Shown: positions 1,887 through 23,191, counted from the stretch's first letter. The stretch is 24,000 nt of DNA from Sulfurisphaera javensis (GCF_041154675.1 NZ_AP031322.1:1711812-1735811); one strand, 5' to 3'. Notes: a model not told the origin generated them from the letters alone. Made by a program: numbers and translations.

Positions 1887-3236
1887 TTAACTCACCCCCT
1901 TAGCTTTGGGAATTACGGGTTTACCTCTTCTTCTAGATAAGAAATACGAACCAACACCTACAACTATTCCAGCACCCACAGCTGCTGCTAATAACGTTGT
2001 TGAAGGTAATGTTGGTGCATTCGGAGGAGCATAGAATGGTTCATATAAATCTGGAAATCCTGGAGCAGTACAAGCTATACATACTCCCCCTCTCGTACAT
2101 CCCCCAACTCCTCCAACCCAGCCTAGACGCGGTGCTGGACTATTTGCTTCTGTTCCTTTACATCCTAAACTATAAGTGCATTGCGGATCTCCGAAGTTTT
2201 TAGCAAAAATTCCTTGAGCGAAAAATCCAGCTCTGGGACAGTTCTGATGAGTCTCATTTCCATAAAAGAATTTTGGTCTATTAAATATATCTAAGTAAGT
2301 AGAAGGGGCAGGAGCTAATCCTCTCGCATATAATACTCCGGCTACTAATGTTCTCATAATCCAATCTCCAGCTGGTGGATCAGCAGCTATAGCAACAATT
2401 GGCTGTCCTAATTTACTTAACCAATGATAACTTGGTCCAGGGTAAGCAGTATTATAAGGAGAGTTTGTAACAGAGTATATATCCTCATCAATTACTTGCT
2501 CTCCTCTGAAATAACCTAGATCTTTTTCATATACCTCATGGATGTAAGCAGGAAAACCTAGAATTCCTCTGTAAGGATCATCTAACATTCCCATCACATA
2601 TGTAGGAGATCTGTAACCTAAACCGTTTGTAGTTGCAGGAATTCCACCATAGGTTGCACAAGCACCAGTAGCGTAAACTAATGCAGCTTTTTTCATTAAG
2701 TTAAACACGAACTCATCGCATAGCAATACATGTCCAGATGGAGTTCTCCCAGCAGAACACCAGAAAGAACCAGATGGCTTCTCGTAATATAAGCCAAACT
2801 CATCAAACATTGTACCTTCAACAACTAATACATAAGGATCAAAAACACCAGCTAATGCAGCTTCCATAGTTGGATATGCCATATCGTCTTGTGGCATTAA
2901 AATTGGATGGTACACTAGATTTATGTTTCCTAGGTTTGTTATTGATGGAGCCCTTAAGGTTATCGGTTGTAAATTAAATGTGACTTGTGTCACTACGTCT
3001 TCAACAGCAGGATTCATTGCATCTATGAAAGCTATTGTATTTCCTCCACACCATCCGTTTCCTGTCCAGATTATGTTTATTGGATCTGATAGAGCGTCAT
3101 TAGCCATGTTAAATAAGTCCTTCCATGTTAGTCCCTTTTCTATCATCCATGTTGTAAGACCAGTAATCCCAGCTAATTTCATGAAATCTCTTCTACTAAT
3201 CCCTATCTTAACTTGTTTTGGCTTCGGTTCCTTCAC
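1887..3236 (-). CDS. [NiFe]-hydrogenase small subunit, hydrogenase A, with twin-arginine (Tat) signal and C-terminal transmembrane anchor
   Basis: GTG start preceded by AGGGGAT (SD-like). N-terminal SRRDFMKLAG Tat motif. Small-subunit motifs IIWTGNGWCGGNT, ATGACATYGG, HQNCPR, CTYSLGCKG and CTRGGVCIAC. Hydrophobic C-terminal stretch LLAAAVGAGIVVGVGSYFL followed by RRRGK. Lies directly upstream of the large subunit. Confidence 0.88.
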   Translation of the reverse strand: MKEPKPKQVKIGISRRDFMKLAGITGLTTWMIEKGLTWKDLFNMANDALSDPINIIWTGNGWCGGNTIAFIDAMNPAVEDVVTQVTFNLQPITLRAPSITNLGNINLVYHPILMPQDDMAYPTMEAALAGVFDPYVLVVEGTMFDEFGLYYEKPSGSFWCSAGRTPSGHVLLCDEFVFNLMKKAALVYATGACATYGGIPATTNGLGYRSPTYVMGMLDDPYRGILGFPAYIHEVYEKDLGYFRGEQVIDEDIYSVTNSPYNTAYPGPSYHWLSKLGQPIVAIAADPPAGDWIMRTLVAGVLYARGLAPAPSTYLDIFNRPKFFYGNETHQNCPRAGFFAQGIFAKNFGDPQCTYSLGCKGTEANSPAPRLGWVGGVGGCTRGGVCIACTAPGFPDLYEPFYAPPNAPTLPSTTLLAAAVGAGIVVGVGSYFLSRRRGKPVIPKAKGVS

Positions 3237-3316
3237 TTTAATCCCCTTTACTAGGTATCTTTTAGTATACCAGATTTATAAATTTTACTTATAAACTAAT
3301 GATATCTTATTTTTTA

Positions 3317-4318
3317 TTACTTATATTCAAATTTACTAAAATAGTAATAAATTGTTGGTATGAGTGATATAATAAAAGAGCTAAATGATAAAGCATAAGT
3401 AGCTGGAATTAAATTATAAAAATAGGCTACAGAAGCACCAAAAAATAATTCTGCAATAGAGGGAATTAGTGTAAAATGAGGAATTACTTTTATGTTTTCA
3501 CTTTTTCTATCAACGTAGTAAAAGAGAATTGAAAGTGATACAAGAGTTATAAGTGCATATGGAATTTCGTTTATGGTTAGAGAATAGTAGAATTCTGTTA
3601 CGGAAAGAGATAAAGTAATTAGGCCAAATAAAAGATAATAAAATAGGCTAATTTTTCCTTTTATATACCTATATGAAAAATATACGGAGAGAAATAACGA
3701 AAGAAGCAATTCTAGTACTGAAGCCTCATTTATTGGATCATGAGATAAGGGTAGAATCGAATGAGTCATTTCTGAAGCTATATTAGGGCCTGCAAAAATA
3801 AGTAACGAAAGAAGTAAAATATCCCTATTTTTAAACTTATAAGATAAATAAGCTATTTCAGGGAAAATCATTAGAAAAAACATAAATGAATTTACTACCT
3901 CAAGGATAGCTGGGACTACAATTTGAGATATTGAGAGTGAAAAACTAGGTATGTCTGTCCCATAAAAATAAAGGCTATATAATGCGTTAGTTAAATTATT
4001 TCTCACAATTGCATAATAAAGTAAACTCATAACAATTTCTTGGAAAATGAGAGAAGATACTATTGCAAATTTATATTTTCCTAGGTTATAACTTAATTGC
4101 ATGATTAACCAAAAGTAGACTGAAATTAGGAGGGTTAAAATAAGATCTGAAGGAGAAACAAGAACGAGGAAAACCACTGTAGTTATGTAACTCATAAGAA
4201 GAAATAAGTATCCAAGCTTATTTTTCAATGCAAACTCAAATGAGATAGTGACTGTTATGGTCATTATAATAATGTACACTATATATAGAAGGACTAAATT
4301 GTGGATTTCACCGTTCAT
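3317..4318 (-). CDS. Polytopic integral membrane protein of unknown function, same strand and immediately upstream of the hydrogenase A genes (possible membrane partner, unproven)
   Basis: 333-aa ORF that is almost entirely hydrophobic, with roughly 9-10 predicted helices by eye. I recognise no family motif. Only 80 nt separate it from the small-subunit start. Confidence 0.5.
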   Translation of the reverse strand: MNGEIHNLVLLYIVYIIIMTITVTISFEFALKNKLGYLFLLMSYITTVVFLVLVSPSDLILTLLISVYFWLIMQLSYNLGKYKFAIVSSLIFQEIVMSLLYYAIVRNNLTNALYSLYFYGTDIPSFSLSISQIVVPAILEVVNSFMFFLMIFPEIAYLSYKFKNRDILLLSLLIFAGPNIASEMTHSILPLSHDPINEASVLELLLSLFLSVYFSYRYIKGKISLFYYLLFGLITLSLSVTEFYYSLTINEIPYALITLVSLSILFYYVDRKSENIKVIPHFTLIPSIAELFFGASVAYFYNLIPATYALSFSSFIISLIPTIYYYFSKFEYK

Positions 4319-4402
4319 ATAATTACTCTTATCAAAAATAATTATAAAGTTTACTATAATATACCTAGTATAGCTTATTAACTGTGAAAATAAATTATAT
4401 TT

Positions 4403-5656
4403 ATGAACTTTCTTTCATGGAATCAGGCAATTTATAAAAATAAAGAATTAATTGCACTCTTCATGATAACTTCTTGGTGCGAGTATTGTGAAGAACAAGA
4501 AAAAGAGTTTGACTTCGAGATCAATGACAAAGTTTCTTTAGTAAAAGAAGATGCCGATGAGAGAATAGATTTAGCTGTAAGATATACACCACAGATTTAT
4601 CCATGCATCAGTTTAATAGCTAAAGATTCTGTTATAGGTGGTACATACGGTTTAGTTAAAAAAGATAAAATAAAAGAGATGGTTAATGATGCACTAGAAC
4701 TAATCAGCGGAAAAGGCAAAATTATAACACCTCCTGAAATTTCTCATAAAGTTGATAAGTTTACTCCTAATTATGCCTTAAATCATATATTAAGAGTATG
4801 TGAAGGTTATTTTGATTGGAAAGAAGGAGGATTTGAAAAAGAACCAAAATATGTTTCTCCAGAGGTTTTACAATTATTTTTGCATTTTAATGATTATTAT
4901 CATAAACTAATGGTAGAGGTTACTTTAGATAATGCTATAGAATACTTATGGGATAATGGATTTTATTTATTTTCTAAGACAATTGATTGGAAGGAACCTT
5001 ACAAGGCTAAACTACTAGATTATAATGCAGAAATGGTAAGAACTCTTTTAAAGGCTTATGAAGTAGTTAAAGATGATACTTACTTGGATTATGCTATAAA
5101 AACAATAGAGTGGATTCTTAAGAAGAAGGATAACCAAGGCTACTTTATTAACTCTGAATTCCTTGGGAAGGAGGATAAAAGACCATTTTTAAATGTAAAC
5201 TCTAACGTAGGTAACGCCCTTATAGAAGCTTATAAATTTACTGAGGATGAAAAGTATATTGAAGAAGCTAAAGAGTTATCTGATAAGCTAGTAATTTCTC
5301 ATAGAATTGACACTCTAACTCCACCTTATTTAATAGATATTGCATCTTACCTTAGTTTTCTATCCAAATTGGATATTAATAAAGCAAAGAGACTTAGTGT
5401 AATTCTTCAGGATTATAAAGGAGATAAAGCGTACTATGATGTAACTCTGAATTATGCAAAAGAGAATTTAATAGGAAGATATCATTTCCTTTATGATAAT
5501 ACTCTATTAGCTGAGGCTTTCATGAACTTAGGCTTTATTGATGAGGCCAAGAAGATTATTGATAGTTTTCTAGCCTCTTATGGTATTTATACGTATTATA
5601 ATCAGGCAAAATATGCTATTATTCTAGGTGAGCTTTATGGTTTATTTACTCACTAA
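4403..5656 (+). CDS. Thioredoxin-fold protein with a long helical C-terminal domain (YyaL/DUF255-like architecture)
   Basis: N-terminal ALFMITSWCEYCEEQEKEF (CxxC in a thioredoxin-like context, followed by VKEDADERIDL..Y). About 300 aa of helical repeat-like sequence follow. The family call rests on resemblance only. Confidence 0.5.
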   Translation: MNFLSWNQAIYKNKELIALFMITSWCEYCEEQEKEFDFEINDKVSLVKEDADERIDLAVRYTPQIYPCISLIAKDSVIGGTYGLVKKDKIKEMVNDALELISGKGKIITPPEISHKVDKFTPNYALNHILRVCEGYFDWKEGGFEKEPKYVSPEVLQLFLHFNDYYHKLMVEVTLDNAIEYLWDNGFYLFSKTIDWKEPYKAKLLDYNAEMVRTLLKAYEVVKDDTYLDYAIKTIEWILKKKDNQGYFINSEFLGKEDKRPFLNVNSNVGNALIEAYKFTEDEKYIEEAKELSDKLVISHRIDTLTPPYLIDIASYLSFLSKLDINKAKRLSVILQDYKGDKAYYDVTLNYAKENLIGRYHFLYDNTLLAEAFMNLGFIDEAKKIIDSFLASYGIYTYYNQAKYAIILGELYGLFTH

Positions 5657-6110
5657 AATTTTCTTTGGATTATTGGCATTAGATCAAGTAGTCTTTATAT
5701 TTGAAGTTTTAAGTATACTTAACAATTCCAGCTTTTCTCCTTTAACTGAAATTAATTATATTCTAGGTTTATTAACAATCTTAATATTAATAGCAAGGTT
5801 ATTCATATTGTTTAATGGCTATCCTAGATATGTTTCAATACTTCTCTTTATACCAATAATTAATGTATTTGCTGTGCCTTACATTTCTTACAAACTTACA
5901 TCTTCTAAGTTATTGTCTGGCATAACATTTGGATTATGGTTTGTCAACTTAGTCTTTACGTTAATAGCTAATATACCACCAATAATTTACTTCGGAGAGG
6001 GATATTATTTCCTAAACCAGTTTGTAATACTTGATTTATTTTCTTTAGCATCGCTCCTGAGTTTAGGCTATTGTGTGATATATAGAGAGAAAAAGATGAA
6101 AAGTACTTAA
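5628..6110 (+). CDS. Small hypothetical membrane protein
   Basis: 160-aa hydrophobic ORF with about 4-5 helices. It overlaps the 3' end of the previous gene. GTG start at 5628, or ATG at 5637. Confidence 0.45.
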   Translation: MSFMVYLLTKIFFGLLALDQVVFIFEVLSILNNSSFSPLTEINYILGLLTILILIARLFILFNGYPRYVSILLFIPIINVFAVPYISYKLTSSKLLSGITFGLWFVNLVFTLIANIPPIIYFGEGYYFLNQFVILDLFSLASLLSLGYCVIYREKKMKST

Positions 6111-6130
6111 TTCACTTTATAATCGAAATA

Positions 6131-6143
6131 AAAGTTTATATAT
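6131..6143 (+). promoter_or_regulatory. BRE/TATA-like element (AAAGTTTATATAT) upstream of the permease gene, with AGGTGG SD at 6166-6171
   Basis: AT-rich TATA-like box about 40 nt upstream of the ATG at 6179, and a GGTG-type SD 8 nt upstream of the start. Confidence 0.4.
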
Positions 6144-6178
6144 CAGTAATACCGACTATACTATTAGGTGGGAAAAGT

Positions 6179-7630: not shown

Positions 7631-7643
7631 AAGTTTTTATATA
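7629..7643 (+). promoter_or_regulatory. BRE/TATA-like element (AAAAGTTTTTATATA) for the beta-helix protein gene
   Basis: Centred about 26 nt upstream of the GTG at 7663, consistent with a leaderless transcript. Confidence 0.4.
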
Positions 7644-7662
7644 CAAAAAATAATGCATTTCT

Positions 7663-8851: not shown

Positions 8852-10018
8852 ATGAGTTTATATGATTTAGAGATTATTGACCTTGATGTCTTCGTTAAAG
8901 AGGGAAAAGTAGTTAAAGCAAAATGTTCTGGTAATAAAATTAGAGGATTTGAGAAGTCTTTTATAGGAAAGGAAGCTAAAATATTTTATGAAATTTTACC
9001 TAGAGTTTTAGCAACGTGTAGTCAATCCCACTTATATGTATATCTACAACCTCATATGAATACTCCAATAACTGAAATACTTATGACCCTCGAAATAGTT
9101 GATAGCCATTTAAAGCATCCCTATGCCTATTGGTTTCCTCATTTAATAAAAGATGAGCAGTTCTCTTTTCCATCCGGTGATAAATTTAAAAGAGTTAGTT
9201 TAATTTCAAGAAAGATAAAAGAATTAATGGAAAAGATAGGAGGAAGATGGCCTCATATTGACTATATAAAAGAAAATAAAGAGATAAGATTAAGAAAAGA
9301 TGATATAAAAGATATTACAAGTTTCATAGAGAATGAATTATTGGGAATGAGTATTGAAGATTTTTTAAGCGTAAAAAACATAGAGGATTTTTCTGGCGAT
9401 ATGAAGTTATTGATTGAAAAAGGAATTGAAGCATTAGACTGGAATACTGGTCTTAGAGATCATTTAGTCGTAGGATATCCATTTTCTGGTAATTTTGATT
9501 ATAATAAAATAGAGGATAAAGGTATTGAAGTACTCTATGATGGTAAAAAAGTAGAAGTAGGGCCTTTGGCTCAAGCATTAACTTTTGATCAACTAGTTAA
9601 AAATTATTTTAATAAATATGGACCTTCTCCTCTTTTAAGAGAAATATCTAGAGTGAAAGTCCTTGCAAAATTATTAAATAATATTAGAGATACTGAGTTA
9701 AAAAGTGAGAAATTCGAACCTCAAGACGGACATTTTATTTCATTTGCTGAATCAATAAGAGGGTCACTAATTCATGATTACATAATAAAAGATGGTAAGA
9801 TTTTATCGTATAAAATTATTCAACCAACAACATTTATAGCATCACCTAATGGTGCTTTAGAAAAATCAGTGGTAGGATTACATATTAAAAATCCTAAAGA
9901 TCCAGTTGAATTAGCATTAACTGTTTCTTCATTGGATACATGCTTCGTAACAAGAGTTAAAGTATTTGATGATAATAATAATCTATTAACAACAAAAAGA
10001 ATTGGAGGTTTTTGCTAA
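8852..10018 (+). CDS. [NiFe]-hydrogenase large-subunit-like protein lacking half of the active-site ligands (candidate HupK/HoxV-type maturation scaffold)
   Basis: 388 aa. [31 protein letters not shown] aligns to RGxE..L.GR...RxCGxCxxxH with the first Cys replaced by Leu. GGRWPH and [27 protein letters not shown] align to GGQWPH and APRGALGHWIVIKGGKILNYQIVTPTQ of the 13279..14808 large subunit. C-terminal [11 protein letters not shown] replaces DPCxxCxxH (second Cys to Thr, His to Lys). The N-terminal RxEGH motif is absent. Confidence 0.75.
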
Positions 10019-12397: not shown

Positions 12398-12910
12398 ATG
12401 AAAGAAAACAATTATGAGGAAGATGAGGAGTATAAAGAGGGAATTAAGAAATTAGCAGAAATTGTTATTTATTTAAATAGTAGTGGCATCCTTGATTCAA
12501 TACTTGACTTACTGAAATCTGGTAAATTACTTAAAATAATTAGATCTCCTACATTTAGGGCAGTAATAGAACTATTAGGAGACTTGCAACAAATGATTGA
12601 TTCTGGAGAAGTGAATCCGGACGATTTTATTAATGGCATAATAGCTATTGCTAAACATTTAGATAAGATAGGTAAAATAGTTAGTACTTTAGAAAAACAT
12701 GGAATACTTGATGTAATGACCAATGGATTATCAAAAGCAGCTGAAAAAATTGTTAAAGAAAATAGTGAATCTAATATTGTACAATTATTAGCTTCTTTTG
12801 ATGACCCAGATGTAAAGATGACACTCGCTTATCTTCAGTATATGTTAAAAGAACTAGGAAAATCTACTCGGCCTTTAATAGAGAAAAATAATAATGGAAG
12901 CTCAACATAA
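12398..12910 (+). CDS. DUF1641-like helical protein (hypothetical)
   Basis: 170 aa. The repeated motifs SGILDSILDLLKSG and HGILDVMTNGL, and the C-terminal LLASFDDPDVKMTLAYLQYMLKELGK, resemble the DUF1641 pattern. TATA-like AAATTTATATTTT lies about 27 nt upstream of the ATG. Confidence 0.4.
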   Translation: MKENNYEEDEEYKEGIKKLAEIVIYLNSSGILDSILDLLKSGKLLKIIRSPTFRAVIELLGDLQQMIDSGEVNPDDFINGIIAIAKHLDKIGKIVSTLEKHGILDVMTNGLSKAAEKIVKENSESNIVQLLASFDDPDVKMTLAYLQYMLKELGKSTRPLIEKNNNGSST

Positions 12911-13258
12911 ATATGCGTCCTTGTTATTATCAAGTAAGTTTATTAAACTGATTAATATCTGAAGAGCATTCTTTACTGCCTTTCCTTCGGTAGTTATTGA
13001 ATAGTAAACCTTTATAGGTTCTGAGGAATCCACTTCTCTTTTAACTAACTTAGCTTTCTCTAACTCCTTTAATCTTATTGATAAGGTCCTTTGAGTTAAA
13101 CCTTTAATCTTCCTTTGAATCTCATTAAATCTCATTTTTCCATATTTATCTAAAATAACTAAAATTGCGTACGTATATTTTTTCATTATTAATTCCAGTA
13201 ATTTAGAAGAATATAAAAAACATAATTCTTTATCTTCAGCTATGCAACATTCAACCAT
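12902..13258 (-). CDS. HxlR/MarR-type winged-helix transcriptional regulator
   Basis: MRFNEIQRKIKGLTQRTLSIRLKELEKAKLVKREVDSSEPIKVYYSITTEGKAV matches the HxlR-type wHTH pattern. The start is more likely the ATG at 13186 (MKKYTYAIL), which has TTTTTATATT about 28 nt upstream. Lies 21 nt downstream of the hydrogenase B large subunit on the same strand. Confidence 0.65.
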   Translation of the reverse strand: MVECCIAEDKELCFLYSSKLLELIMKKYTYAILVILDKYGKMRFNEIQRKIKGLTQRTLSIRLKELEKAKLVKREVDSSEPIKVYYSITTEGKAVKNALQILISLINLLDNNKDAYLC

Positions 13259-13278: not shown

Positions 13279-14808
13279 CTAAATAAGCTTTAGCATGTGC
13301 ACATTACATACCATACAAGCATCATGAGACCTAACTATATGATAAACCTCAATTGGATTATCTACATTAGAAACTTCAGTACCTATTAAAGCTAAAGGTA
13401 AATGACTCTTATTACCTAAAGGATCCTCTGGACCCATGTTAATTTGAGTAGGAGTCACAATTTGATAATTTAAGATCTTACCACCTTTAATTACTATCCA
13501 ATGACCTAATGCACCTCTTGGAGCTTCAACTAACCCATATCCTTTTCCTTCAATAACATCGTTCGGTTTCTTATAAGTAGGCTTACCGAACTTAAAATTA
13601 TTTAACTCATTAATCATAAGTTCATTATAAATTATTATTCTTATTATCCTGGCAATTATTCTTGAAAGTACACTTGGACCAATCTTATCGACCATATCAA
13701 AGACTATAGGATTTTTTGAAATAGTTAACATTGCTAATGCGCCAACTTCTGGTGCCAATAACTTACCATCATATTTATATCTAAAGCACTTAGTCAATGA
13801 ATATTTTCTTTTATCATCTGTTAAGTTGGGATTTGTCTCACCTTGAAAAGGATGTAAACCAATATTATCTCCTAAAGTATATGTGTAATATGAAGAATTA
13901 ACGAATTCTAGTATATTCTCTTGATTAAATTCCTTAAATTCCTTCTCTTTTACAAAGAAAATACCAGGTTTAAAATATTTCTTCCTTGGAACTCCTACAT
14001 ATTCTTCTGATGGTAAATGACCATAACTGAGGAAAATTCCAGAACCATATCCCAATTTATGCCAATTAGCTTCTAATCCAAATTCGATTATTTTTGATAA
14101 GTCTCCTTGTTTATAATCTTCAGCCCATTGTAATAAGTCTTTATAACTTTTAACGGTGCTCATAAATTGCTCTACTGGTCCTCCTAAGATAGTTTTTTCT
14201 AAATAATTTTGTTTAATATTTATCAATATTGATATTGCTTTATTTATCTCATTAGGTAAAGGATCTGATGTGACCCCTCCAGGAATTATAGCTGAACCAT
14301 GAGGCCATTGACCTCCAAAAATAGCATAAACTTCAGTATACTTTTTTGACCATCTAAAACATTCTTTGTATGATGAACCATTAATAGGGGCCCATCTCTT
14401 TAAAGCTTCATCAAAAATCGCATAATCTTGGTATTTTCTGTTCACAACATCAATTAAAAACATAAAATAAGTATGCCTTAAATCATTTTGACAACTTTCA
14501 GCCATACTCAATACATTTCTTATCCTTACAGCATTTTCTGGGACTTCAGCATTATAAATCATATCTAATGCTGAGGCTGATGCATATAAATGAGAGGCTC
14601 CACATATACCACAGACTCTTGGGGTTATAACTAAAGCGTCTAAAGGATTTTTACCTTTAAGAATTATTTCTATACCTCTAAATAATCTTGAGATTATTTT
14701 AGCATCAACAACTTTATTCTTTTCAAACTTTACCTCAACATCTAAATCTCCTTCAACTCTATTAAATGGAGAAATAATTTTATTACTCAAGCCACTCCAC
14801 CTTTTCAT
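13279..14808 (-). CDS. [NiFe]-hydrogenase large subunit, hydrogenase B
   Basis: 509 aa. Motifs NRVEGDLDV, FRGIEIILKGK...PRVCGICGASH (L1), GGQWPHGSAIIPGG and EAPRGALGHW. C-terminal HDACMVCNVH (L2 variant with DAC instead of DPC) is followed by only MLKLI. An alternative TTG start at 14790 follows GGTGGAG. Confidence 0.92.
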   Translation of the reverse strand: MKRWSGLSNKIISPFNRVEGDLDVEVKFEKNKVVDAKIISRLFRGIEIILKGKNPLDALVITPRVCGICGASHLYASASALDMIYNAEVPENAVRIRNVLSMAESCQNDLRHTYFMFLIDVVNRKYQDYAIFDEALKRWAPINGSSYKECFRWSKKYTEVYAIFGGQWPHGSAIIPGGVTSDPLPNEINKAISILINIKQNYLEKTILGGPVEQFMSTVKSYKDLLQWAEDYKQGDLSKIIEFGLEANWHKLGYGSGIFLSYGHLPSEEYVGVPRKKYFKPGIFFVKEKEFKEFNQENILEFVNSSYYTYTLGDNIGLHPFQGETNPNLTDDKRKYSLTKCFRYKYDGKLLAPEVGALAMLTISKNPIVFDMVDKIGPSVLSRIIARIIRIIIYNELMINELNNFKFGKPTYKKPNDVIEGKGYGLVEAPRGALGHWIVIKGGKILNYQIVTPTQINMGPEDPLGNKSHLPLALIGTEVSNVDNPIEVYHIVRSHDACMVCNVHMLKLI

Positions 14809-15757
14809 CTTTCTTGTACAAAGGTTTCACTAAGAAATTAGGCGCAGAAGCTCTAGCTATAGCTGAGTAAGTAGTATAAGCACCTCTACTCACTCCTAAG
14901 GGTAACCTCTTCGGTAAACCACTTCTGTTTTTTTCAGTTACGAAAAAGTTAAATGTAGGGAAATCAAACTCTGTACACCCAAAACATGGAGTACCAACTC
15001 TAGTCTTACTACTCTGATTATTCCAGAGAATTATATTACATGGACTTTTAGTGAATGAACCCCTACAACCTAAGTCAAAATATAAACATCCTTCTCTATG
15101 TCCGAACTCTTTTAAAGATATTTTATATGAGAAGTATAAACTCCTTGGACAACCAAATTGTGTAGTTGTACTATAAATTATTTTTAATCTTTGGTACTCA
15201 TCTAAATCCTCTTCAGATAAGCTATCTGTCAATATTTTAGATAATGTTGTAGTAATCCACTCTGGATGAGCTGGACATCCAGGAATATTTATTACTGGAA
15301 AATTCTTTCTAGATCTGTAATCTTTCCCTAAAAATCCTCCTTTTTCTTTTTTATGAAATTATAAACCAGTAGATTCTGTTGGATTTGGCTCAGAAGCCGG
15401 AACACCACCAAAACTTGCACAATCTCCAACAGCTACAACATAATTTGCTACTTTCGAAATCTCATAAACCCAGTCCTTCATAGGCTTTCCAGCAAAAATA
15501 TTAAACTTTCCAGTACCATTTGGACCTAAAACTACAGTACCTTCAAATATAAATACGTCTAACTGAATTTTCTCTTTAATAATTTGTTGCAAAATTTCTC
15601 TTACTTTATCACCAGTTTCTAAAGATAATGATGGATGCCATAATAACTTTGCATTATACATTTCGAAGAACTCTAATACATCTGGATTTTCTGCATTAAG
15701 AAATGAAAGTGTGTTACCACCACATGCTCCTCCTTGAAGCCATAAAATTGTTCTCAT
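14783..15757 (-). pseudogene. [NiFe]-hydrogenase small subunit, hydrogenase B (no Tat signal), interrupted by one in-frame TAA at 15359-15361
   Basis: ORF fragments 15359..15757 and 14783..15232 share one frame. Translation across the gap reads ...NPTESTGL*FHKKEKGGFLGKDYRSRKNFPVINIPGCPAHPEWITTTLSKIL.... The N-terminal part has WLQGGACGGNT and VGDCASFGG. The C-terminal part has GCPR, CLYFDLGCRG, SPCN and TPCFGCTEFDFP. Confidence 0.85.
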
Positions 15758-15793: not shown

Positions 15794-15801
15794 ATATATA
15801 T

Positions 15802-16329
15802 ATGAAAATAGAGGAATTATTTGCAGGAATTATACTTCCTCTTATCGTTATACCAGAAGAATTTTTTGTTTACTCTGTCATACATAATTTTACAGCAATT
15901 TACGTTGTTGGTATAATAGTAATTATAGGTGAAATAATATCTGCATTTCTGGCTAAAATTCTGACTAAGAAAAAATTAAAAATAGAAATTAACAAAGGCC
16001 TAGTCTTTCTAGTCCTTATAATACCTTTATCATTTTTCCCCGGGTTAACACAAACTTCTTCCCCTTCTTTTTATACTATCTTAATACCGGCTGGAATTGT
16101 TGGAGGTATTTGTGAAGAAATAATTTACAGAGGTTATGTTTTATCTGATACAACTAGTATATTTATCCAAGGAATTTTATGGGGGATTCTTCATATATTT
16201 GACGGTTTACTATTCTTCCTATGGACAATTGTTATAGGTATAATTTTTGGTTTCATAGCTAAACGATATGGAATTTTACCTACAATGTTAATTCATGTAA
16301 TTTCAAATATTCTTCGAATTTTATTGTAA
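15802..16329 (+). CDS. CPBP-family (CAAX-type) intramembrane metalloprotease
   Basis: 175-aa membrane protein with CEEIIYRGYV (EExxxR motif), GILHIFDG and LIHVISNI (HxxxN/D motif). Confidence 0.75.
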   Translation: MKIEELFAGIILPLIVIPEEFFVYSVIHNFTAIYVVGIIVIIGEIISAFLAKILTKKKLKIEINKGLVFLVLIIPLSFFPGLTQTSSPSFYTILIPAGIVGGICEEIIYRGYVLSDTTSIFIQGILWGILHIFDGLLFFLWTIVIGIIFGFIAKRYGILPTMLIHVISNILRILL

Positions 16330-16346
16330 TTTTATTTTATATTATT

Positions 16347-16378: not shown

Positions 16379-16385
16379 GGGAAAT

Positions 16386-16396: not shown

Positions 16397-16419
16397 GCTA
16401 AATCAACTTTAATATTGAT

Positions 16420-17475: not shown

Positions 17476-17742
17476 ATGGTGAGTAAAGTGGGAAAACTTG
17501 TATGTTTAATATGTGAACATGAAGAGGAAGTACCTAAACATTGTGGAGTTGAAATGGATTATATTCTAAAAGGAAATTTTAGAAAAATAGAGTATTTAAA
17601 ATGTAAGATCTGTGGAGTAGAAAGGGAAGTCCCTAGGCATTGTGGTGTTCCTATGCTCTATATTGACGAAGATTATTTCCCTGTAAGTAAGTTAACTAAA
17701 TCAGAAATAGAGGAGATGAAAAAGCTTTATTCAGGTGAGTGA
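17476..17742 (+). CDS. Small Cys/His-rich protein with two tandem CxxC-x9-HCG-x2-M modules (putative metal-binding hydrogenase accessory protein)
   Basis: The ATG directly abuts the hypE stop, and the stop lies 1 nt before the hypC ATG. Internal duplication: VCLICEHEEEVPKHCGVEMDYI and KCKICGVEREVPRHCGVPMLYI. Confidence 0.6.
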   Translation: MVSKVGKLVCLICEHEEEVPKHCGVEMDYILKGNFRKIEYLKCKICGVEREVPRHCGVPMLYIDEDYFPVSKLTKSEIEEMKKLYSGE

Positions 17743-18022: not shown

Positions 18023-19145
18023 GAGACTACCACAAATTTTAAAATATTATAGAAATCCGACACTTGCCAAAAGCATAACAGAAAAAATTAACGAATTAGC
18101 AAAGAAAATTGAGGAAAATATATCAATTATGCACGTTTGTGGTTCACACGAATGGACCATAACACATTACGGTATTAGAGCATTATTGCCAGATAATGTT
18201 CAAGTAAGAGCAGGACCGGGATGTCCAGTATGTATAACTCCAGCAAAAGATATTGATGATGCAGTAAAGTTAGCATTAGACGGAATTGTTGTGATGACAT
18301 ATGGAGATATGAGCAGATCTAAAGGAACTAAAATGAGTTTACAAGATGCAAAAGCTTTAGGTGCTGACGTTAGAGTAGTTTATGGTGTACAAGATGCTGT
18401 ACAAATGGCAAGAAAAGAACCAAATAAAGATTTTGTATTCTTTGCTGTAGGAATGGATACTACAGCACCAGCAACTGCTTATGAAATACTCTCTGGCGTT
18501 CCACCTAATTTAAGCTTCTTGGTATCTTATAGATATACTCCATCAATACAAGGTTCTGTGATGGAATCTAACGTTTTAGGAATTGACGCTTTTATCTCCG
18601 CTGGCCATTCAGCTACAATTACTGGAATGAAACCGTATTACGAATACTTCTTAAGAACAAAAAAACCGGTAGTATTTTCAGGCTTTGAACCACTAGATAT
18701 ATTGCTTTCTGTTTATATGTTACTAAAGCAAATTTATGAGAATAAACCTAAACTTGAAAACGAATATACAAGGGCTGTAACATGGGAAGGAAATGTAAAA
18801 GCACAAAATGCAATGGAAAAAGTGTTTGAACTTGAAGACGGTTATGTAAGAGGAGTAGCTGTATTTCCAAAAGCTGGATTTAGGCTTAAAGATGAGTTTA
18901 AACATGCAGATACAAGGGAGAAATATGGCTTAAAGAAAGGGATTTCGACAGAAGATGAATATGTTACCGGGGCAAGATGCGGAGAAGTTGTCATGGGACT
19001 TATAGATCCGCCAGAATGTCCATTATATATGACTGTTTGTAAACCAGATGATCCTAAAGGAGCACCTATGGTATCTCAAGAAGGTACATGTTGGATTTGG
19101 GCACATCACAAAATAACTAACCTTGTGCCTAAGTGTAAGAGGTGA
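18006..19145 (+). CDS. hypD: Hydrogenase maturation protein HypD
   Basis: Motifs CGSHEW, GPGCPVCITP and GMDTTAP (GFETT variant), plus the C-terminal Fe-S motif CGEVVMG..PPECPLYMTVCKPDDPKGAPMVSQEGTC. Likely start is the ATG at 18015. Overlaps hypC. Confidence 0.95.
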   Translation: MVQMSERLPQILKYYRNPTLAKSITEKINELAKKIEENISIMHVCGSHEWTITHYGIRALLPDNVQVRAGPGCPVCITPAKDIDDAVKLALDGIVVMTYGDMSRSKGTKMSLQDAKALGADVRVVYGVQDAVQMARKEPNKDFVFFAVGMDTTAPATAYEILSGVPPNLSFLVSYRYTPSIQGSVMESNVLGIDAFISAGHSATITGMKPYYEYFLRTKKPVVFSGFEPLDILLSVYMLLKQIYENKPKLENEYTRAVTWEGNVKAQNAMEKVFELEDGYVRGVAVFPKAGFRLKDEFKHADTREKYGLKKGISTEDEYVTGARCGEVVMGLIDPPECPLYMTVCKPDDPKGAPMVSQEGTCWIWAHHKITNLVPKCKR

Positions 19146-19873
19146 CAAAAATAGTCTACATGATTGGTAATACATATTGTAAATTATGCCAAACAAATGA
19201 ACAACAATTAAAGGAAGAGCTTGTTAAAACTGTAAAAGCATTTTATTATAAAGGATTAGTAACAAATGCTGGTGGAAATCAGAGTGCTAGATTACCCGGA
19301 AGTAACAAAGTTTGGCTAACTCCTTCTGGCTATCCCAGAATGAGTTTGTCTCCAGAAGATTTAATAGCAGTTGATCTTGAAGGAAATGTTATAGAAGGAG
19401 ATTTAAAACCCTCTATTGAAGTTTATGCTCATCTAGAAGTTTATAAGAGAAGACCAGATGTAAATGCAGTAATTCACGCACATGTACCTTATGTAATGGG
19501 AGCAACAATATCTGGATTTTTGGAAATAACCCATGGAGAAGCGGCAGCAATATTAGGGGAAGTAAAGATTATCCCATACTATCACCCAGGGACTAAGGAG
19601 TTAGCTAAAGCTGTAGGCGAAGCATTTCAGGGTACAGGAATGAAGGTACCCAGAGTAGTAATAACATTAAACCACGGTGCGTTTTCAGCTGGAGCATGTA
19701 TTCATGAGGCTAGAGCTTTTATGGAAATTTTAGATGAGTGGGCTAGGTTTAATATTGCAGCTAAGGCGTTAGGAGGAATAAAACATAAATTAACGTTAAT
19801 CGACTTAAGAAAACCAGGAGCAGGGTACATTAGGGCGGTAAAATTTGGAGGAAGAGCAGGTAAAGTGTCTTGA
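19142..19873 (+). CDS. Class II aldolase/adducin-domain protein (FucA/MtnB-like), translationally coupled to hypD
   Basis: GGNQSARLPGSNKVWLTPSGYPRMSLSPEDLIAVDLEGNVIEGDLKPSIEVYAHLEVYKRRPDVNAVIHAHVPYVMG matches the class II aldolase pattern (GN.S.R..ITPSG...PS.E...H..IY..RPD..AV.H.H). The GTG at 19142 overlaps the hypD TGA. An alternative ATG is at 19160. Confidence 0.8.
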   Translation: MTKIVYMIGNTYCKLCQTNEQQLKEELVKTVKAFYYKGLVTNAGGNQSARLPGSNKVWLTPSGYPRMSLSPEDLIAVDLEGNVIEGDLKPSIEVYAHLEVYKRRPDVNAVIHAHVPYVMGATISGFLEITHGEAAAILGEVKIIPYYHPGTKELAKAVGEAFQGTGMKVPRVVITLNHGAFSAGACIHEARAFMEILDEWARFNIAAKALGGIKHKLTLIDLRKPGAGYIRAVKFGGRAGKVS

Positions 19874-20150
19874 GAATTTAAAGAATGTAATAGAACCAGA
19901 AACTGGGTTACCAATAACAGAGTTAGGACTTGTGAGAATTGCAAAAGAAAATGGAGAATTAGTTATAACTTATATACCAATTTCAGCTTACTCTCCTCAA
20001 ATCTTAGTCATTTCTGTTGGAATTCAATTAGTAAAAGAATGCAATGCTAAGGTTAAAATAGAGAATTATTATTTAGAAGAAGAAATAAATAAAAGACTGG
20101 AGGAACTAAGGAATGAACTCTCACGTGTACTTAGCAAAACATCTTCTTGA
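19845..20150 (+). CDS. DUF59/MIP18-like small protein (Fe-S assembly-related fold), atypical
   Basis: LKNVIEPETGLPITELGLVRIAKENGELVITYIP resembles the DUF59 N-terminal pattern (L..V.DPE.g..i.eLGlv). The usual T..CP cysteine position reads SAYSP. The only in-frame start is the TTG at 19845, which overlaps the aldolase-like gene by 29 nt. Confidence 0.45.
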   Translation: MEEEQVKCLENLKNVIEPETGLPITELGLVRIAKENGELVITYIPISAYSPQILVISVGIQLVKECNAKVKIENYYLEEEINKRLEELRNELSRVLSKTSS

Positions 20151-20424
20151 ATTATCAAAAAACTCAAGTGATAATATAATTAAGCTTCAAGCACTTCTTA
20201 GATGCGTAGAGGAGTTAGCTATATATAAGTACAAAATTGATGATTCTATGGAAAATTATCAGAAAATAACAATAAATTTCATTAAAAATGATAAGGAATT
20301 ATATGATTTATATTCTATTGTTCTCGATCTAATATTTTACTATTTATTGGGAGGAGAAAATATTAATGTTAGTGAAATAGAGGAAAAAATAAATGAGAAG
20401 ATCAATCAGATAAAAGAGATTTAA
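20113..20424 (+). CDS. Hypothetical helical protein, last ORF of the hyp operon
   Basis: 103-aa ORF whose ATG overlaps the previous ORF by 38 nt. I recognise no family motif. Its 3' end overlaps the convergent HypC-like gene by 23 nt. Confidence 0.35.
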   Translation: MNSHVYLAKHLLELSKNSSDNIIKLQALLRCVEELAIYKYKIDDSMENYQKITINFIKNDKELYDLYSIVLDLIFYYLLGGENINVSEIEEKINEKINQIKEI

Positions 20425-20632
20425 TCTTATCTTTCAAATCTTCTTCTATCTCATTAGGATTTAGAACTTTGATTGCATATCCAGCATGAACTAAAACATA
20501 ATCACCAACTTTAGCATTAACTAGAGAGATCTTAACCCCTCTTATTATTCCGTTAAAATCAACTTTAGCCTCATCACCTTTAATTTCTATTATACGTCCA
20601 ACATATGCCATATCATAAGGATCATATTCCAT
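20402..20632 (-). CDS. HypC-family paralogue lacking the N-terminal cysteine
   Basis: MEYDPYDMAYVGRIIEIKGDEAKVDFNGIIRGVKISLVNAKVGDYVLVHAGYAIKVL aligns to the 17744 HypC (MCVAYPGKVIEIHGEFAKVDFGAGTIRDNILISLVNVKVGDYVLVHAGYAIQVV). It has neither Cys2 nor any other Cys, and it carries a 7-aa N-terminal extension. Lies downstream of the hydrogenase C endopeptidase. Confidence 0.75.
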   Translation of the reverse strand: MEYDPYDMAYVGRIIEIKGDEAKVDFNGIIRGVKISLVNAKVGDYVLVHAGYAIKVLNPNEIEEDLKDKIKSLLSD

Positions 20633-20637
20633 ACTTT

Positions 20638-21126
20638 CTATTTATCTTCCAAAATATTTAGACATTTCTCTTTTACCAGTTTTTCAATATCTGAAACCTC
20701 TAAATTTATTTTTACACCAAATTTCTCCATAAAAAGTTTAAATATAGGAAATAATTTTACCATTCTATTTATACATTCTTCCGATAATCTAAAGTTAATA
20801 TCTACAATATATGGCTTACAAGCAACTACATAAAATTTTTTATCCTCATATAGTTTTAAGACTAGATTTAATCCTAAATCATGTAATGAAAAATCATAAT
20901 CTGAACTCCTTTTCACCTCATATATCCCATACTCTGAATCAATATTAGCTATATCTAAAAGGACTACTATATCATATTTATTTATATCAATATTAAGTAA
21001 ATTTGATGTATCAAGATCTATTACCTCAGCTCCTAGTGTGTTATCTTTAATAATTTCAGCTAAACAAGAACCAAAACCATCATCTCCCATCAACCTATTT
21101 CCAACACCTACAATAGCCACTTTCAT
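20638..21126 (-). CDS. Hydrogenase maturation endopeptidase (HybD/HoxM/HycI family)
   Basis: 162 aa. [24 protein letters not shown] (GxGNxxxxDDGxG) and the later SLHDLG His motif. Overlaps the stop of the large subunit by 4 nt. Confidence 0.9.
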
Positions 21127-22646
21127 AATAATTTCTCTAATATATGGTCTTTAGTAATTATATGAACTGCGCATGCTGAACAAGGATCAAAACTTCTAAT
21201 AATTCTTAAAGCATCTAAGCCACTAACCTTTTCAACCTCTTCAGTAACCTTTTGTCCTATTATGCTCTCTTCTACTGGGCCACCATTACTACTAAAGTTC
21301 CTATCCGTGGGAGTAATTATTTGATATCGAGATATAATCCCATCCTTTTGAAGTATCCAATGAGCATTTCCACCTCTAGGAGCATCATGAGCCCCAACAG
21401 CTAAATTAGTCCCTTTACCTTTATATTGATTAATTTCCTTACTCTCCTCTAAATTCATAATATAGTCGTAAAGTAAACCTACAGTAAACATTCTTGCAAA
21501 AAGCCTTTCTACTACATCATTGGCTATATAATCCCATTCATAGTTAAATGCCTTTGGCTTTCCCCTTTGTAATCGATATGAGTAAAGCCTGGCAATATCA
21601 CCAGTAGTAGGCATAAACTCCTCTGAAGAGAAAACTTGTTTGACAGTAAATAAATAATTACCAGACAATTGCTTTAATTTAGTCTCTTTATTCCATGGAT
21701 GATGCAAATCAACCTTATTTCCTAAAGGATCTTCAGATACTGTTTGCTCCCAATTGTCATAGGCAGTTCCTTCAGTGTAAACTCTCACACCCAAAAGAAT
21801 ATCAATTAAATTTCTACTTAGAAGCTCTCCTTTACGTATTAACGCTGGAGGAATAAATCTCTTTATACCCCAATTATTCATATCTTCATAATTAGCATTA
21901 TAATCATGTGAATCTAAGAGTCCGTAAGTTATGAAATTTGCACCTAGATCTTTATAAATATTTTTATAAAATTCTCTTAATTCCGCAGTTACATAGAATA
22001 ACTTTTCTATATCCTTCTCTATTTCTTTAAGTCCTTGCTTAATCTTTGTAATAACATCTTTATCCCTAATCTCAATACCTCCGACTTTTAAAGAAAGTGG
22101 TTGAGGATATCTTAACCATATTAATGTTGCTAAGTCCCTTAATTTCGTTGATATCTTTAGTGCCGTTTTGTAAATTTCCCCTTTGTAATATAAATTATCC
22201 ATTATGTCTGAAACTTTAGTATATCCATGAATATCACGATATATACTATAAGTATTCAAAGCTTTTTCAAATTGAGACGGAGTAAAAGATGCAACTATAG
22301 GTGAAGAGAAATCAATACCTTCAAATATAAACGCAACAGTCACATTATTATACATAATATCTGCTAAAGCATAGGCAACATTTCTTAAATCAATCACACC
22401 AGAAGAAGGGTAAATACCAGAAGCCATTTCTAAAGCTTCAATGGAAACTAAAGTATGAGTAGCACCACAAACACCACATATTTTCCCAGCAATATTAGGT
22501 GCTAAGTTCAGCTTCTTATTCTTTAAAAGTAACTCAAATCCTCTGAACATTGTTATTTTAACTTTGGCAAAAGTATAATATCCATTCTCTATCTTGGTTT
22601 CAATTCCTAAATGACCTTCAACTCTAGTAATTGGCTCTATCTTCAT
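21123..22646 (-). CDS. [NiFe]-hydrogenase large subunit, hydrogenase C
   Basis: 507 aa. Motifs [21 protein letters not shown]...[11 protein letters not shown] (L1) and [11 protein letters not shown]-terminal [10 protein letters not shown] is followed by a 12-aa tail, [12 protein letters not shown]. Confidence 0.92.
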
Positions 22647-22648
22647 TG

Positions 22649-23191
22649 CTAACCACCAGAAGTTAAAGCATAGTAAATTGCTGCAATCATCATTTTATCC
22701 GAAGCTGGACAACCAGGCACTTCATAAACTCTTTTACCTAAAAATTCGCTTACTCCTACGTAACCTAATTCCCTTATAATTCCCCCATTTACAGCACAAG
22801 AACCTACAGCAACAATTGCCTTAGCTTTTTCAGCTAATTTTTTGATTAACTCATTACAAGTCATATCTCCAACATAACAAAGTCCATCTTTATCCTTTGG
22901 AATCGCTCCTTCTATCACTAGAACAAAATCTTTTTGTGAAAGAATTTCGTCTAAGTATTCCTTCCCACATTTCTCTTCACAAATGTTAGAGTAAAGTTTG
23001 AACGGAGAAGAATGAAAGAAAAGATTTTCCAAAGACTTACAGCCACTTTTCAGTATATTTACACTTTCACCAGAACATGATTGAGCCTCAATCCAAACTA
23101 TATTACTCTTTAATACTTTCTCTAACGCTTCACAATAATCCATAATAACTTTTTTACATAAAAAAATATATGTTTTTCTGAAGACTTTCAT
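22649..23191 (-). CDS. [NiFe]-hydrogenase small subunit, hydrogenase C; short form with only the proximal-cluster domain and no Tat signal
   Basis: Motifs [22 protein letters not shown] and EVPGCPAS. No medial or distal cluster region is present. The start is more likely the ATG at 23143 (MDYCEALEK), which has CATATATTTTTTTA about 25 nt upstream, giving about 164 aa. Confidence 0.85.

What the first reader, a model, noticed from the sequence alone, without database searches (positions are those of the whole stretch)
1887..23191. All three small subunits replace the second cysteine of the N-terminal CxxC proximal-cluster motif (CGGN, CGGN, CSGE)
I aligned the canonical W-x5-C-x2-C motif (for example WLHNAECTGC in Desulfovibrio-type enzymes) by eye. 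It reads WTGNGWCGGN in A (about 3040-3070), WLQGGACGGN in B (about 15715-15745) and [10 protein letters not shown] in C (about 23060-23090). The second Cys is therefore Asn, Asn and Glu respectively. The GxCxxxGG cysteine is kept in all three. The GCP cysteine is kept in B and C. In A the equivalent block reads VAIAADPPAGDW, which places an Asp where the Cys should be. Non-cysteinyl or three-ligand proximal clusters are known to tune redox potential and O2 tolerance in aerobic uptake hydrogenases (Asp ligation in actinobacterial-type enzymes, and [3Fe-4S] chains in high-affinity enzymes). A consistent loss across three paralogous enzymes suggests a lineage-specific cluster chemistry.
Basis: partly seen in the sequence, partly recalled or inferred. 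Interest (0 to 1): 0.7.

Follow-up and report, generated by a model that had tools for sequence, protein, structure and literature searches.

The report
Non-cysteine proximal-cluster ligands in three archaeal hydrogenases
Three unrelated oxygen-associated [NiFe] hydrogenases of the archaeon Sulfurisphaera javensis really do lack the second cysteine that normally holds the iron-sulfur cluster next to the active site; this is a known hallmark of one of them, but a second shows a previously undescribed two-cysteine-plus-aspartate site.

Summary
CGGN (A, 3039-3068), CGGN (B, 15713-15742) and CSGE (C, 23066-23095) sit exactly where solved small subunits have CxxC. A also has Asp286 in place of the GCP cysteine.

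The "lineage-specific loss in three paralogues" reading is not supported. The three subunits are only 22-25% identical to each other and belong to three old hydrogenase clades.
- **B** is a group 2e (Hys) enzyme, E = 5e-111 to M. smegmatis HucS. HucS carries the same CxGN and has three [3Fe-4S] clusters by cryo-EM and EPR. Asn is invariant in 121/121 relatives. B is therefore already explained.
- **B also carries an in-frame TAA** where 120/120 relatives have Gln. An independent assembly shows the same stop, so B is probably a pseudogene in this strain.
- **C** is the truncated, single-cluster SUL1 (Hsu1) subunit, and its CSGE is invariant in 20/20 relatives. Glu also occurs at this position in many group 1h-like relatives.
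- **A** is SUL2 (Hsu2), the dominant aerobic enzyme in Acidianus brierleyi. Its combination of Cys63, Asn66, Cys193 and Asp286, plus a medial cluster lacking its first Cys, is clade-wide. It was absent from about 380 other small subunits, and I found no description of it in the literature I could search. I predict a three-ligand or carboxylate-ligated high-potential cluster. This is untested.

The parts
1887..3236 (-). Small subunit A, SUL2/Hsu2-type, 449 aa. It has a Tat motif (RRDFMKL) and a C-terminal membrane helix, and only 10 Cys in total.
   Evidence: It matches PF01058 and PF14720. Its best solved relative is 5aa5_A HofK, E = 3e-40. The AlphaFold model has pLDDT 88 and its best fold match is 5aa5_A.
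3039..3068 (-). WTGNGWCGGN in A. Cys63 is kept, and Asn66 sits at the second CxxC position.
   Evidence: In the model, N66 lies at the N-terminus of helix 65-71, directly after strand 53-60, which is the canonical geometry.
2361..2387 (-). AADPPAGDW in A. Asp286 replaces the Cys of the GCP motif.
   Evidence: The ungapped alignment to HofK 'PGCPVQPD' is. Asp is found in 10/10 SUL2 sequences and in none of 108 other hits. It lies in the loop between strand 281-283 and helix 290-304.
2658..2660 (-). Cys193 codon of GACATYGG in A. This is a retained proximal ligand.
   Evidence: It is an invariant column.
2130..2147 (-). ANSPAP in A. Ser366 sits where 1h relatives have the first medial-cluster Cys ('ARCNVP'). 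There is no Cys anywhere between C359 and C380.
1..1885 (-). Large subunit of A, which runs off the window. It carries the RECGICGEHH motif.
   Evidence: The translation is. It is 75% identical to A. brierleyi HsuL2.
14783..15757 (-). Small subunit B, group 2e/Hys-type and Huc-like. It has no signal peptide and is split by an in-frame stop.
   Evidence: E = 5e-111 to HucS 7uur/7utd across the stop. It matches PF01058 and PF14720.
15713..15742 (-). WLQGGACGGN in B, with Cys12 and Asn15.
   Evidence: HucS has WFQGGACSGN. Asn is invariant in 121/121 sequences.
15359..15361 (-). In-frame TAA in B, at a position that is Gln in all relatives.
   Evidence: Gln is found in 120/120 relatives. The same TAA is present in an independent Logan assembly of run DRR537969.
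13279..14808 (-). Large subunit of B, with RVCGICGASH and DACMVCNVH motifs.
22649..23191 (-). Small subunit C, SUL1/Hsu1-type. It is truncated to the N-terminal flavodoxin-like domain, and its likely true start is Met17 at 23143.
   Evidence: It matches PF01058 only. It is 100% identical to SJAV_19150 of Sulfurisphaera javensis. The clade is isolated, with 2 representatives below 1e-30 and the next hit at 7.6e-15.
23066..23095 (-). [10 protein letters not shown] in C, with Cys39 and Glu42.
   Evidence: The motif is invariant in the clade.
21123..22646 (-). Large subunit of C, with [10 protein letters not shown] and DPCSACAVH motifs.
   Evidence: It is 58% identical to a Sulfolobales (Acd1) sequence that falls in the SUL1 clade of Leung et al..
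20638..21126 (-). Hydrogenase maturation protease that follows C's large subunit.
   Evidence: It matches TIGR00072 at 7e-20.

Best explanation
The window comes from Sulfurisphaera javensis. It carries three deeply divergent uptake [NiFe] hydrogenases of aerobic Sulfolobales: A is SUL2/Hsu2, B is group 2e/Hys and C is SUL1/Hsu1. In each one, the missing second CxxC cysteine is a fixed, selected signature of its own clade. It is not a shared Sulfolobales-specific event.

Mechanistic predictions:

- **B.** By direct homology to HucS (same CxGN, same Gln in place of the distal His), B would bind three [3Fe-4S] clusters. The proximal one would be held by Cys12, Cys113 and Cys161, with Asn15 as a non-ligating neighbour, giving a high-potential relay. 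In this strain the gene carries a CAA-to-TAA nonsense mutation, so B is probably not made. The homology is shown. The cluster type is inferred.
- **C.** Its single cluster would be held by Cys39, Cys132 and Cys161, with the Glu42 carboxylate as fourth ligand to a [4Fe-4S]. This would be analogous to the Asp or Glu at this position in group 1h. The alternative is that Glu42 does not ligate and the cluster is [3Fe-4S]. This is inferred.
- **A.** Only two canonical cysteines remain (Cys63, Cys193). Asp286 takes the place of the GCP cysteine, and Asn66 occupies the position that is Asp in 1h and Asn in Huc. The most likely result is a three-ligand (2 Cys + 1 Asp carboxylate) [3Fe-4S]-like cluster, or an Asp-ligated labile [4Fe-4S]. 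The medial cluster has three Cys (C380, C386, C389) and the distal cluster is the normal His330/Cys333/Cys353/Cys359 site. This again suggests a raised-potential, oxidation-biased and O2-robust relay. This is inferred and is the novel part.
For: **Identity of the enzymes.**
- C is 100% identical to an S. javensis protein.
- A's large subunit is 75% identical to A. brierleyi HsuL2.
- C's large subunit is 58% identical to a SUL1-clade sequence.
- B matches HucS at 5e-111.
- Leung et al. 2024 define these four Sulfolobales clades, and report Hsu2 as the constitutive, dominant aerobic enzyme (PMC11018855).

**Independence.** The small subunits share 22-25% pairwise identity.

**Conservation.**

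**Structural precedents.**
- HucS has three [3Fe-4S] clusters, assigned from density, the fourth coordinating residue and EPR (PMC10017518).
- The 1h proximal [4Fe4S] has 3 Cys + 1 Asp, and substituting that Asp abolishes O2 insensitivity (PMC11023054).
- Asp (42) and Glu (22) interchange at this position in 1h-like relatives.

**Fold of A.** The confident model (pLDDT 88, above 90 around residues 60-70, 190-200 and 280-290) keeps the canonical strand-loop-helix positions for C63/N66, C193 and D286. Its best match is 5aa5_A.

**The stop in B.**
Against: - No coordinates could be inspected, so no ligand geometry was measured.
- A has two further clade-invariant cysteines. C160 is in FWCSAG. C173 is in LLCDEF and sits at the N-terminal cap of helix 173-181, on the cofactor side of the sheet. 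Either could in principle reach the cluster.
- C has four more clade-conserved cysteines (C20, C51, C105, C112) of unknown role.
- A [3Fe-4S] or [4Fe-4S] cluster with only two cysteinyl ligands has no precedent in hydrogenases that I know of.
- Leung et al. simply call the HsuS1 cluster a [4Fe-4S] and do not comment on ligands.
- I did not see the A. brierleyi small-subunit sequences themselves. They were not held in the stored supplements.
Confidence: 0.7

Rival explanations
1. A compensating cysteine elsewhere supplies the missing ligand or ligands, so the proximal clusters are ordinary cysteine-ligated [4Fe-4S]. Candidates are C160 or C173 in A, and C20, C51, C105 or C112 in C.
For: These cysteines are invariant or nearly invariant within their clades. 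In the model, C173 caps the N-terminus of helix 173-181, on the same side of the sheet as the cluster-binding loops.
Against: - C160 aligns with the 'YC' cysteine of 1CC1, a solved enzyme that keeps all four canonical proximal Cys positions. It is also present in many hits with a full Cys set.
- C173 and C160 are also present in P0010, which keeps the GCP cysteine. They therefore predate the loss and are not specifically compensatory.
- Asp286 and Asn66/Glu42 are themselves under strict conservation at the exact ligand positions.
- C51 lies about 9 residues along helix 1, away from the cluster.
Confidence: 0.2
2. One reading: Sulfolobales evolved one lineage-specific proximal-cluster chemistry that was imposed on three paralogous hydrogenases.
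For: All three enzymes in one genome lack the second Cys. All three clades are associated with aerobic thermoacidophiles.
Against: - The subunits are only 22-25% identical.
- B's Asn is shared with bacterial and cyanobacterial group 2a enzymes, including the solved HucS.
- The replacing residues differ (N, N, E), as does the rest of each ligand set.
- The same substitutions occur in many unrelated small subunits.
Confidence: 0.05
3. The altered motifs mark decaying, non-functional genes.
For: B has an in-frame TAA, confirmed in a second assembly.
Against: - The N, E and D residues are invariant across many genomes with intact genes.
- The orthologous Hsu2, Hsu1 and Hys proteins are detected by proteomics in A. 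brierleyi, and Hsu2 is the dominant hydrogenase there.
- The large subunits keep their Ni-Fe cysteine motifs.
- The stop in B is unrelated to the motif.
Confidence: 0.05

Closest known systems
Huc, group 2a [NiFe] hydrogenase of Mycobacterium smegmatis (PDB 7UTD/7UUR/8DQV), and group 2e Hys of Sulfolobales
   Same: B aligns end to end with HucS at E = 5e-111. It shares the CxGN proximal motif, Gln at the distal-His position, every other cluster cysteine, and the lack of a signal peptide.
   Different: B is archaeal (2e clade). It is interrupted by a TAA stop in this strain. No HucM/HysM partner was verified in the window.
Actinobacterial-type group 1h hydrogenase (C. necator AH, PDB 5AA5)
   Same: It is the closest solved relative of A by both sequence and fold. 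It has a non-cysteinyl residue at the second CxxC position, and three clusters.
   Different: - AH has C-x-x-D plus two Cys, giving 3 Cys + Asp on a [4Fe-4S].
- A has Asn at that position and moves the carboxylate to the GCP position (Asp286), leaving two Cys.
- A lacks the first medial Cys.
- A has a Tat signal and a membrane anchor, and about 28-34% identity to 1h enzymes.
SUL2 (Hsu2) and SUL1 (Hsu1) hydrogenases of Acidianus brierleyi (Leung et al. 2024, PMC11018855)
   Same: A and C are orthologues of these clades. C is the truncated single-cluster subunit described there.
   Different: - The paper does not describe the cluster ligands and calls the HsuS1 cluster [4Fe-4S].
- Here the SUL1 genes are flanked by HEPN/nucleotidyltransferase genes, not by SdhB2C2D2.
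Standard group 1 small subunits (D. gigas, D. vulgaris, E. coli Hyd-1/2)
   Same: They share the fold, the GxCxxxGG motif and the distal His/3Cys site found in A.
   Different: They have four (or six) cysteines on the proximal cluster. Their medial [3Fe-4S] lacks the Cys380-equivalent (it is Pro), not the first Cys as in A.

Membership tests
[NiFe]-hydrogenase small subunit superfamily | The N-terminal flavodoxin-like Oxidored_q6 domain (PF01058), next to a large subunit that carries the RxCGxC and DPCxxC motifs. | tested here: met
   PF01058 matches A at 1e-10, B at 9e-29 and C at 1e-16. PF00374 large subunits lie adjacent.
[NiFe]-hydrogenase small subunit superfamily | The C-terminal domain carrying the medial and distal clusters (PF14720). 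| tested here: met
   Met for A (6e-23) and B (5.5e-21). Absent in C, which ends after the GCP helix.
Group 2a/2e (Huc/Hys-type) | Close full-length homology to HucS, with CxGN and three 3-Cys sites. | tested here: met
   B matches at E = 5e-111. N15, C12, C113, C161 and the medial and distal Cys are invariant across 121 sequences.
Group 2a/2e (Huc/Hys-type) | An intact reading frame. | tested here: not met
   There is a TAA at 15359-15361 where relatives have Gln. The same stop is in an independent assembly.
Group 2a/2e (Huc/Hys-type) | A HucM/HysM scaffold subunit encoded nearby. | not tested
   The divergent upstream gene here is an Rce1-like membrane protein. The 170-aa ORF at 12398-12910 was not compared with HysM.
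Group 1h (actinobacterial-type, AH/Hhy) | A proximal cluster with 3 Cys plus Asp (or Glu) at the second CxxC position. | tested here: not met
   A has Asn66 and Asp286, so only 2 Cys. In contrast, the 64 1h-like hits have D or E at position 66 and Cys at position 286.
Group 1h (actinobacterial-type, AH/Hhy) | Four-Cys medial cluster ligation. | tested here: not met
   A has Ser366 in place of the first medial Cys.
SUL2 (Hsu2) clade of Sulfolobales | A large subunit orthologous to A. brierleyi HsuL2. | tested here: met
   75% identity over about 400 aa.
SUL2 (Hsu2) clade of Sulfolobales | Gene order of small subunit, large subunit, isp1, isp2. | not testable with these tools
   The window ends inside the large subunit.
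SUL1 (Hsu1) clade of Sulfolobales | A truncated small subunit with a single cluster site, and a SUL1-type large subunit. | tested here: met
   C is 164-180 aa and matches PF01058 only. Its large subunit is 58% identical to a SUL1-clade member.

The most novel reading that the evidence does not exclude
The SUL2 (Hsu2) hydrogenase is the dominant aerobic, atmospheric-H2-scavenging enzyme candidate of Sulfolobales. It may carry a proximal iron-sulfur cluster of a kind not seen in any hydrogenase. The cluster would be held by only two cysteines plus an aspartate carboxylate at the former GCP position, with Asn66 as a second-sphere residue. It would be combined with a medial three-Cys cluster that lacks a different cysteine from the one missing in standard enzymes. 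This would represent an independent archaeal solution to high-potential, O2-insensitive electron relay.
Probability: 0.4. Interest if true: 0.7.

Novelty: new variant of a known kind. Interest (0 to 1): 0.45.

Why it matters
Proximal-cluster ligation is one of the few features experimentally tied to O2 insensitivity and to the oxidation bias of high-affinity hydrogenases. The Asp of group 1h is one example, and the all-[3Fe-4S] relay of Huc is another. The window puts three natural variants side by side (Asn with 3 Cys, Glu with 3 Cys, and Asn with Asp and 2 Cys).

The third variant belongs to the enzyme thought to drive aerobic and trace-gas H2 oxidation in thermoacidophilic archaea. If the two-cysteine/aspartate site is real, it widens the known chemistry of hydrogenase relays. 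It also gives clear mutagenesis targets (N66D/C, D286C, S366C) for thermostable, O2-robust biocatalysts.

The part concerning B adds nothing new beyond confirming group membership.

Tried and rejected
1. The first AlphaFold run on A used a 20-sequence alignment and gave pLDDT 57.9, with the ligand loops below 50, so it was unusable. A 128-sequence alignment gave pLDDT 88.2. Model coordinates are not exposed to scripts, so candidate fourth ligands could not be measured.
2. I searched the Leung et al. supplements for the A. brierleyi small-subunit motifs. The sequences are not held. Only large-subunit sequences were retrievable.
3. An exact-sequence look-up of B's large subunit found nothing on record. 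A look-up through P0118 worked.
4. The genome-contig scan with the SUL2 alignment returned only four Sulfolobales loci, because of strict patterns. This was enough to confirm the motifs in named species, but it is not a census.
5. One literature query timed out. A search for cyanobacterial HupS ligand papers found nothing explicit. My recollection that an Asn at this position was noted for Nostoc HupS (Raleiras et al. 2013) is therefore from memory only.
6. Selenocysteine or read-through at the stop in B was considered and rejected. The codon is TAA, not TGA, and all relatives have Gln.
7. Assembly error as the cause of the motifs was rejected, because they are conserved across dozens of independent assemblies.

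Full report
**What is in the window**

The window is low-GC (about 32%) and carries a hydrogenase island on both strands. Protein C is 100% identical to SJAV_19150 of Sulfurisphaera javensis, so the source is that Sulfolobales archaeon.

There are three small/large subunit pairs, all on the minus strand:
- **A:** small subunit at 1887-3236. Its large subunit starts at 1885 and runs off the left edge.
- **B:** small subunit at 14783-15757, large subunit at 13279-14808.
- **C:** small subunit at 22649-23191, large subunit at 21123-22646, followed by a maturation protease at 20638-21126.

HypF, HypE, HypC and HypD lie between them. Pfam and NCBIfam confirm the assignments. A and B have both small-subunit domains, whereas C has only the N-terminal Oxidored_q6 domain.

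**Checking the observation**

HMMER alignments to solved small subunits are ungapped and high-confidence through the motif.
- A 'WCGGN' aligns with HofK 'GCDGD' (5AA5) and with 'GCTGC' of 1CC1.
- A 'AIAADPPAGDW' aligns with HofK 'NVPGCPVQPDNF', which puts Asp286 on the GCP cysteine.
- B 'ACGGN' aligns with HucS 'ACSGN'.
- C 'SCSGE' aligns with Hyd-2 'ECTGC'.

The GxCxxxGG cysteine is kept in all three, and the GCP cysteine is kept in B and C.

1. B is interrupted by an in-frame TAA at 15359-15361, and its GCP motif lies downstream of that stop.
2. The true start of C is almost certainly Met17, because every homologue starts at MDYC.

**Are the substitutions selected?**

Yes, in all three cases.
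- **B-type enzymes:** among the 120 best relatives of B (Sulfolobales group 2e plus bacterial and cyanobacterial group 2a), Asn15 is invariant. So are all nine cluster cysteines, with a single exception at one position.
- **C-type enzymes:** in 20 full-length relatives of C, AQSCSGE(S/T) is invariant.
- **A-type enzymes:** in the nine close relatives of A, plus named genomes (Metallosphaera yellowstonensis MK1, Ca. Acidianus copahuensis, Sulfolobaceae RB850M), CGGN is kept, with one CGGD. A(A/G)DP(P/A) is kept throughout.

**What the three enzymes are**

The three small subunits are only 22-25% identical to each other, so they are not recent paralogues. Leung et al. 2024 (PMC11018855) described four hydrogenase lineages in Acidianus brierleyi:
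- group 1g Hca;
- group 2e Hys, which is Huc-like;
- SUL1 (Hsu1), a Sulfolobales-only clade with a truncated small subunit carrying one cluster;
- SUL2 (Hsu2), a Sulfolobales-only clade nearest to group 1h. It is constitutively produced and made up 58-98% of hydrogenase protein under oxic conditions.

The window's enzymes map onto three of these:
- A's large subunit is 75% identical to A. brierleyi HsuL2.
- C's large subunit is 58% identical to a member of the SUL1 clade.
- B matches HucS at E = 5e-111.

An exhaustive HMMER scan shows that the SUL1 small subunit is an isolated clade. It has two representatives below 1e-30, and the next hit is at 7.6e-15.

**B is already explained**

HucS has the same CxGN. 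Grinter et al. 2023 assigned all three HucS clusters as [3Fe-4S], from 1.5 Å density, the identity of the 'fourth coordinating residue' and EPR (PMC10017518). B shares every ligand position, including Gln at the distal-His position. B would therefore carry a three-cysteine proximal [3Fe-4S].

In this strain, however, a CAA-to-TAA change truncates it at residue 133. An independent Logan assembly of run DRR537969 has the same stop, and it calls the same two fragments of 132 and 149 aa. B is probably a pseudogene here.

**C is a mild variant**

Glu at the second position is not unique to C.
- Among the hits to A, 1h-like small subunits carry Asp (42) or Glu (22) there.
- At least one distant relative of C has CAGE.

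In the solved 1h enzyme, the Asp ligates a [4Fe-4S] together with three Cys, and replacing it abolishes O2 insensitivity (PMC11023054). The simplest reading is a carboxylate-ligated [4Fe-4S] in C. That agrees with the '[4Fe-4S]' label in Leung et al., although they do not mention the ligand. Four further clade-conserved cysteines (C20, C51, C105, C112) remain unexplained.

**A is the interesting case**

A has only ten cysteines. The ligand positions are as follows.

| Cluster | Residues at the ligand positions in A | Comment |
|---|---|---|
| Proximal | Cys63, Asn66, Cys193, Asp286 | Two Cys, one carboxylate, one amide |
| Medial | Ser366, Cys380, Cys386, Cys389 | No Cys between 359 and 380. 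Cys380 sits where standard [3Fe-4S] medial clusters have Pro |
| Distal | His330, Cys333, Cys353, Cys359 | Canonical |

Asp at the GCP position occurs in all 10 SUL2 sequences. It occurs in none of the 108 other hits to A, none of the 120 relatives of B and none of the distant relatives of C. A more distant fragment, P0010 (51% identity), still has GCP. This suggests the Cys-to-Asp change arose within the clade.

With a 128-sequence alignment, AlphaFold gives a confident model (pLDDT 88.2, above 90 around the ligand loops). It has the canonical strand-loop-helix geometry for C63/N66, C193 and D286. Its best PDB match is 5aa5_A, and no closer solved structure exists.

By analogy with Huc (Asn means no fourth ligand) and with 1h (a carboxylate can ligate), I predict a three-ligand, 2Cys+Asp cluster. 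It would be [3Fe-4S]-like, or a labile Asp-ligated [4Fe-4S], and would contribute to a high-potential, oxidation-biased relay.

The main rival is that Cys173 or Cys160 reaches the cluster. Cys173 is clade-specific and sits at the N-cap of helix 173-181.
- C160 aligns with the 'YC' cysteine of 1CC1, a solved enzyme with all four canonical proximal Cys positions.
- Both C160 and C173 also occur in P0010, which keeps the GCP cysteine, so neither is specifically compensatory.
- C173 still cannot be excluded.

**How common is the substitution?**

Among the 147 nearest 50%-identity cluster representatives of C, the second CxxC position is Cys in about 104, Asn in 19, Asp in 5 and Glu in 1-2. Non-cysteine residues at this position are therefore a recurrent, polyphyletic feature of [NiFe] small subunits. 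A 2015 review also notes that Asp, His, Asn and Gln occur as alternative residues at ligand positions in a broad survey (PMC4463661). The co-occurrence of three such enzymes in one genome reflects the aerobic hydrogenase repertoire of Sulfolobales, not a single lineage-specific event.

**Verdict**

The link to Asp-ligated and [3Fe-4S] proximal clusters is apt, but the claim of a lineage-specific, paralogue-wide loss is not supported.
- B is a known kind and is probably dead in this strain.
- C is a minor variant.
- A carries a ligand set that I could not find described in the papers available or in any solved structure. It is a new variant of a known kind and merits experimental follow-up.

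Noticed in passing
window 15359-15361 (minus strand): There is an in-frame TAA in the group 2e small subunit (…TESTGL*FHKKEKGG…). All 120 relatives have Gln here, which is consistent with a single CAA-to-TAA change. An independent Logan assembly of run DRR537969 (L012) has the same stop. hysS is probably a pseudogene in S. javensis.
   Followed up: yes
window 2130-2147 (minus strand; A residues 364-369) and Cys380 (2097-2099): The SUL2 small subunit lacks the first medial-cluster cysteine (Ser366 in 'ANSPAP'). It has Cys380 at the position that is Pro in standard medial [3Fe-4S] clusters. This gives a three-Cys medial site with a different cysteine missing, and the pattern is conserved across the clade.
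   Followed up: partly
window 8852-10018 (+): This is a 388-aa protein resembling a large subunit. Only its C-terminal part matches PF00374 (1.8e-14). Its motifs are degenerate ('ATCSQSH' and '[11 protein letters not shown]'), so it keeps one Cys of each Ni-Fe pair. It lies next to HypF and may be a HupK/HoxV-like maturation scaffold.
   Followed up: partly
window 22649-23191 (C residues 20, 51, 105, 112): Four extra cysteines are conserved across the SUL1 small-subunit clade, outside the proximal-cluster motifs. They could form a second metal site or disulfides. This was not resolved.
   Followed up: partly
window 23553-23984 (+) and L012 95-854: In S. javensis the SUL1 operon is preceded by a HEPN/nucleotidyltransferase pair. 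In A. brierleyi it is preceded by the SdhB2C2D2-like genes that were proposed as its electron acceptor. This weakens that proposed coupling as a general feature.
   Followed up: partly
window 19142-19873 (+): A class II aldolase/adducin-domain protein (PF00596, 6e-44) is encoded immediately after hypD and overlaps its end, inside the hyp cluster. Its role is unknown.
   Followed up: no
window 17476-17742 (+): An 88-aa protein lies between hypE and hypC. It has an internal duplication, each half carrying CxxC…HCG. It is a possible small zinc- or nickel-binding maturation factor and has no solid family match.
   Followed up: no
window 12398-12910 (+) and 15802-16329 (+): In A. brierleyi a HucM-like gene (hysM) lies divergently upstream of hysS. 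Here that position holds an Rce1-like membrane protease. A 170-aa ORF with a weak DUF1641 hit lies beyond hysL and an HxlR-family regulator (12902-13258). Whether it is HysM was not tested.
   Followed up: no
window 4403-5656 (+): A thioredoxin-like N-terminal domain is fused to a domain with weak hits to GH127, GH88 and C5-epimerase folds. The gene lies divergently beyond an intervening minus-strand membrane-protein ORF (3317-4318), upstream of the SUL2 small subunit.
   Followed up: no
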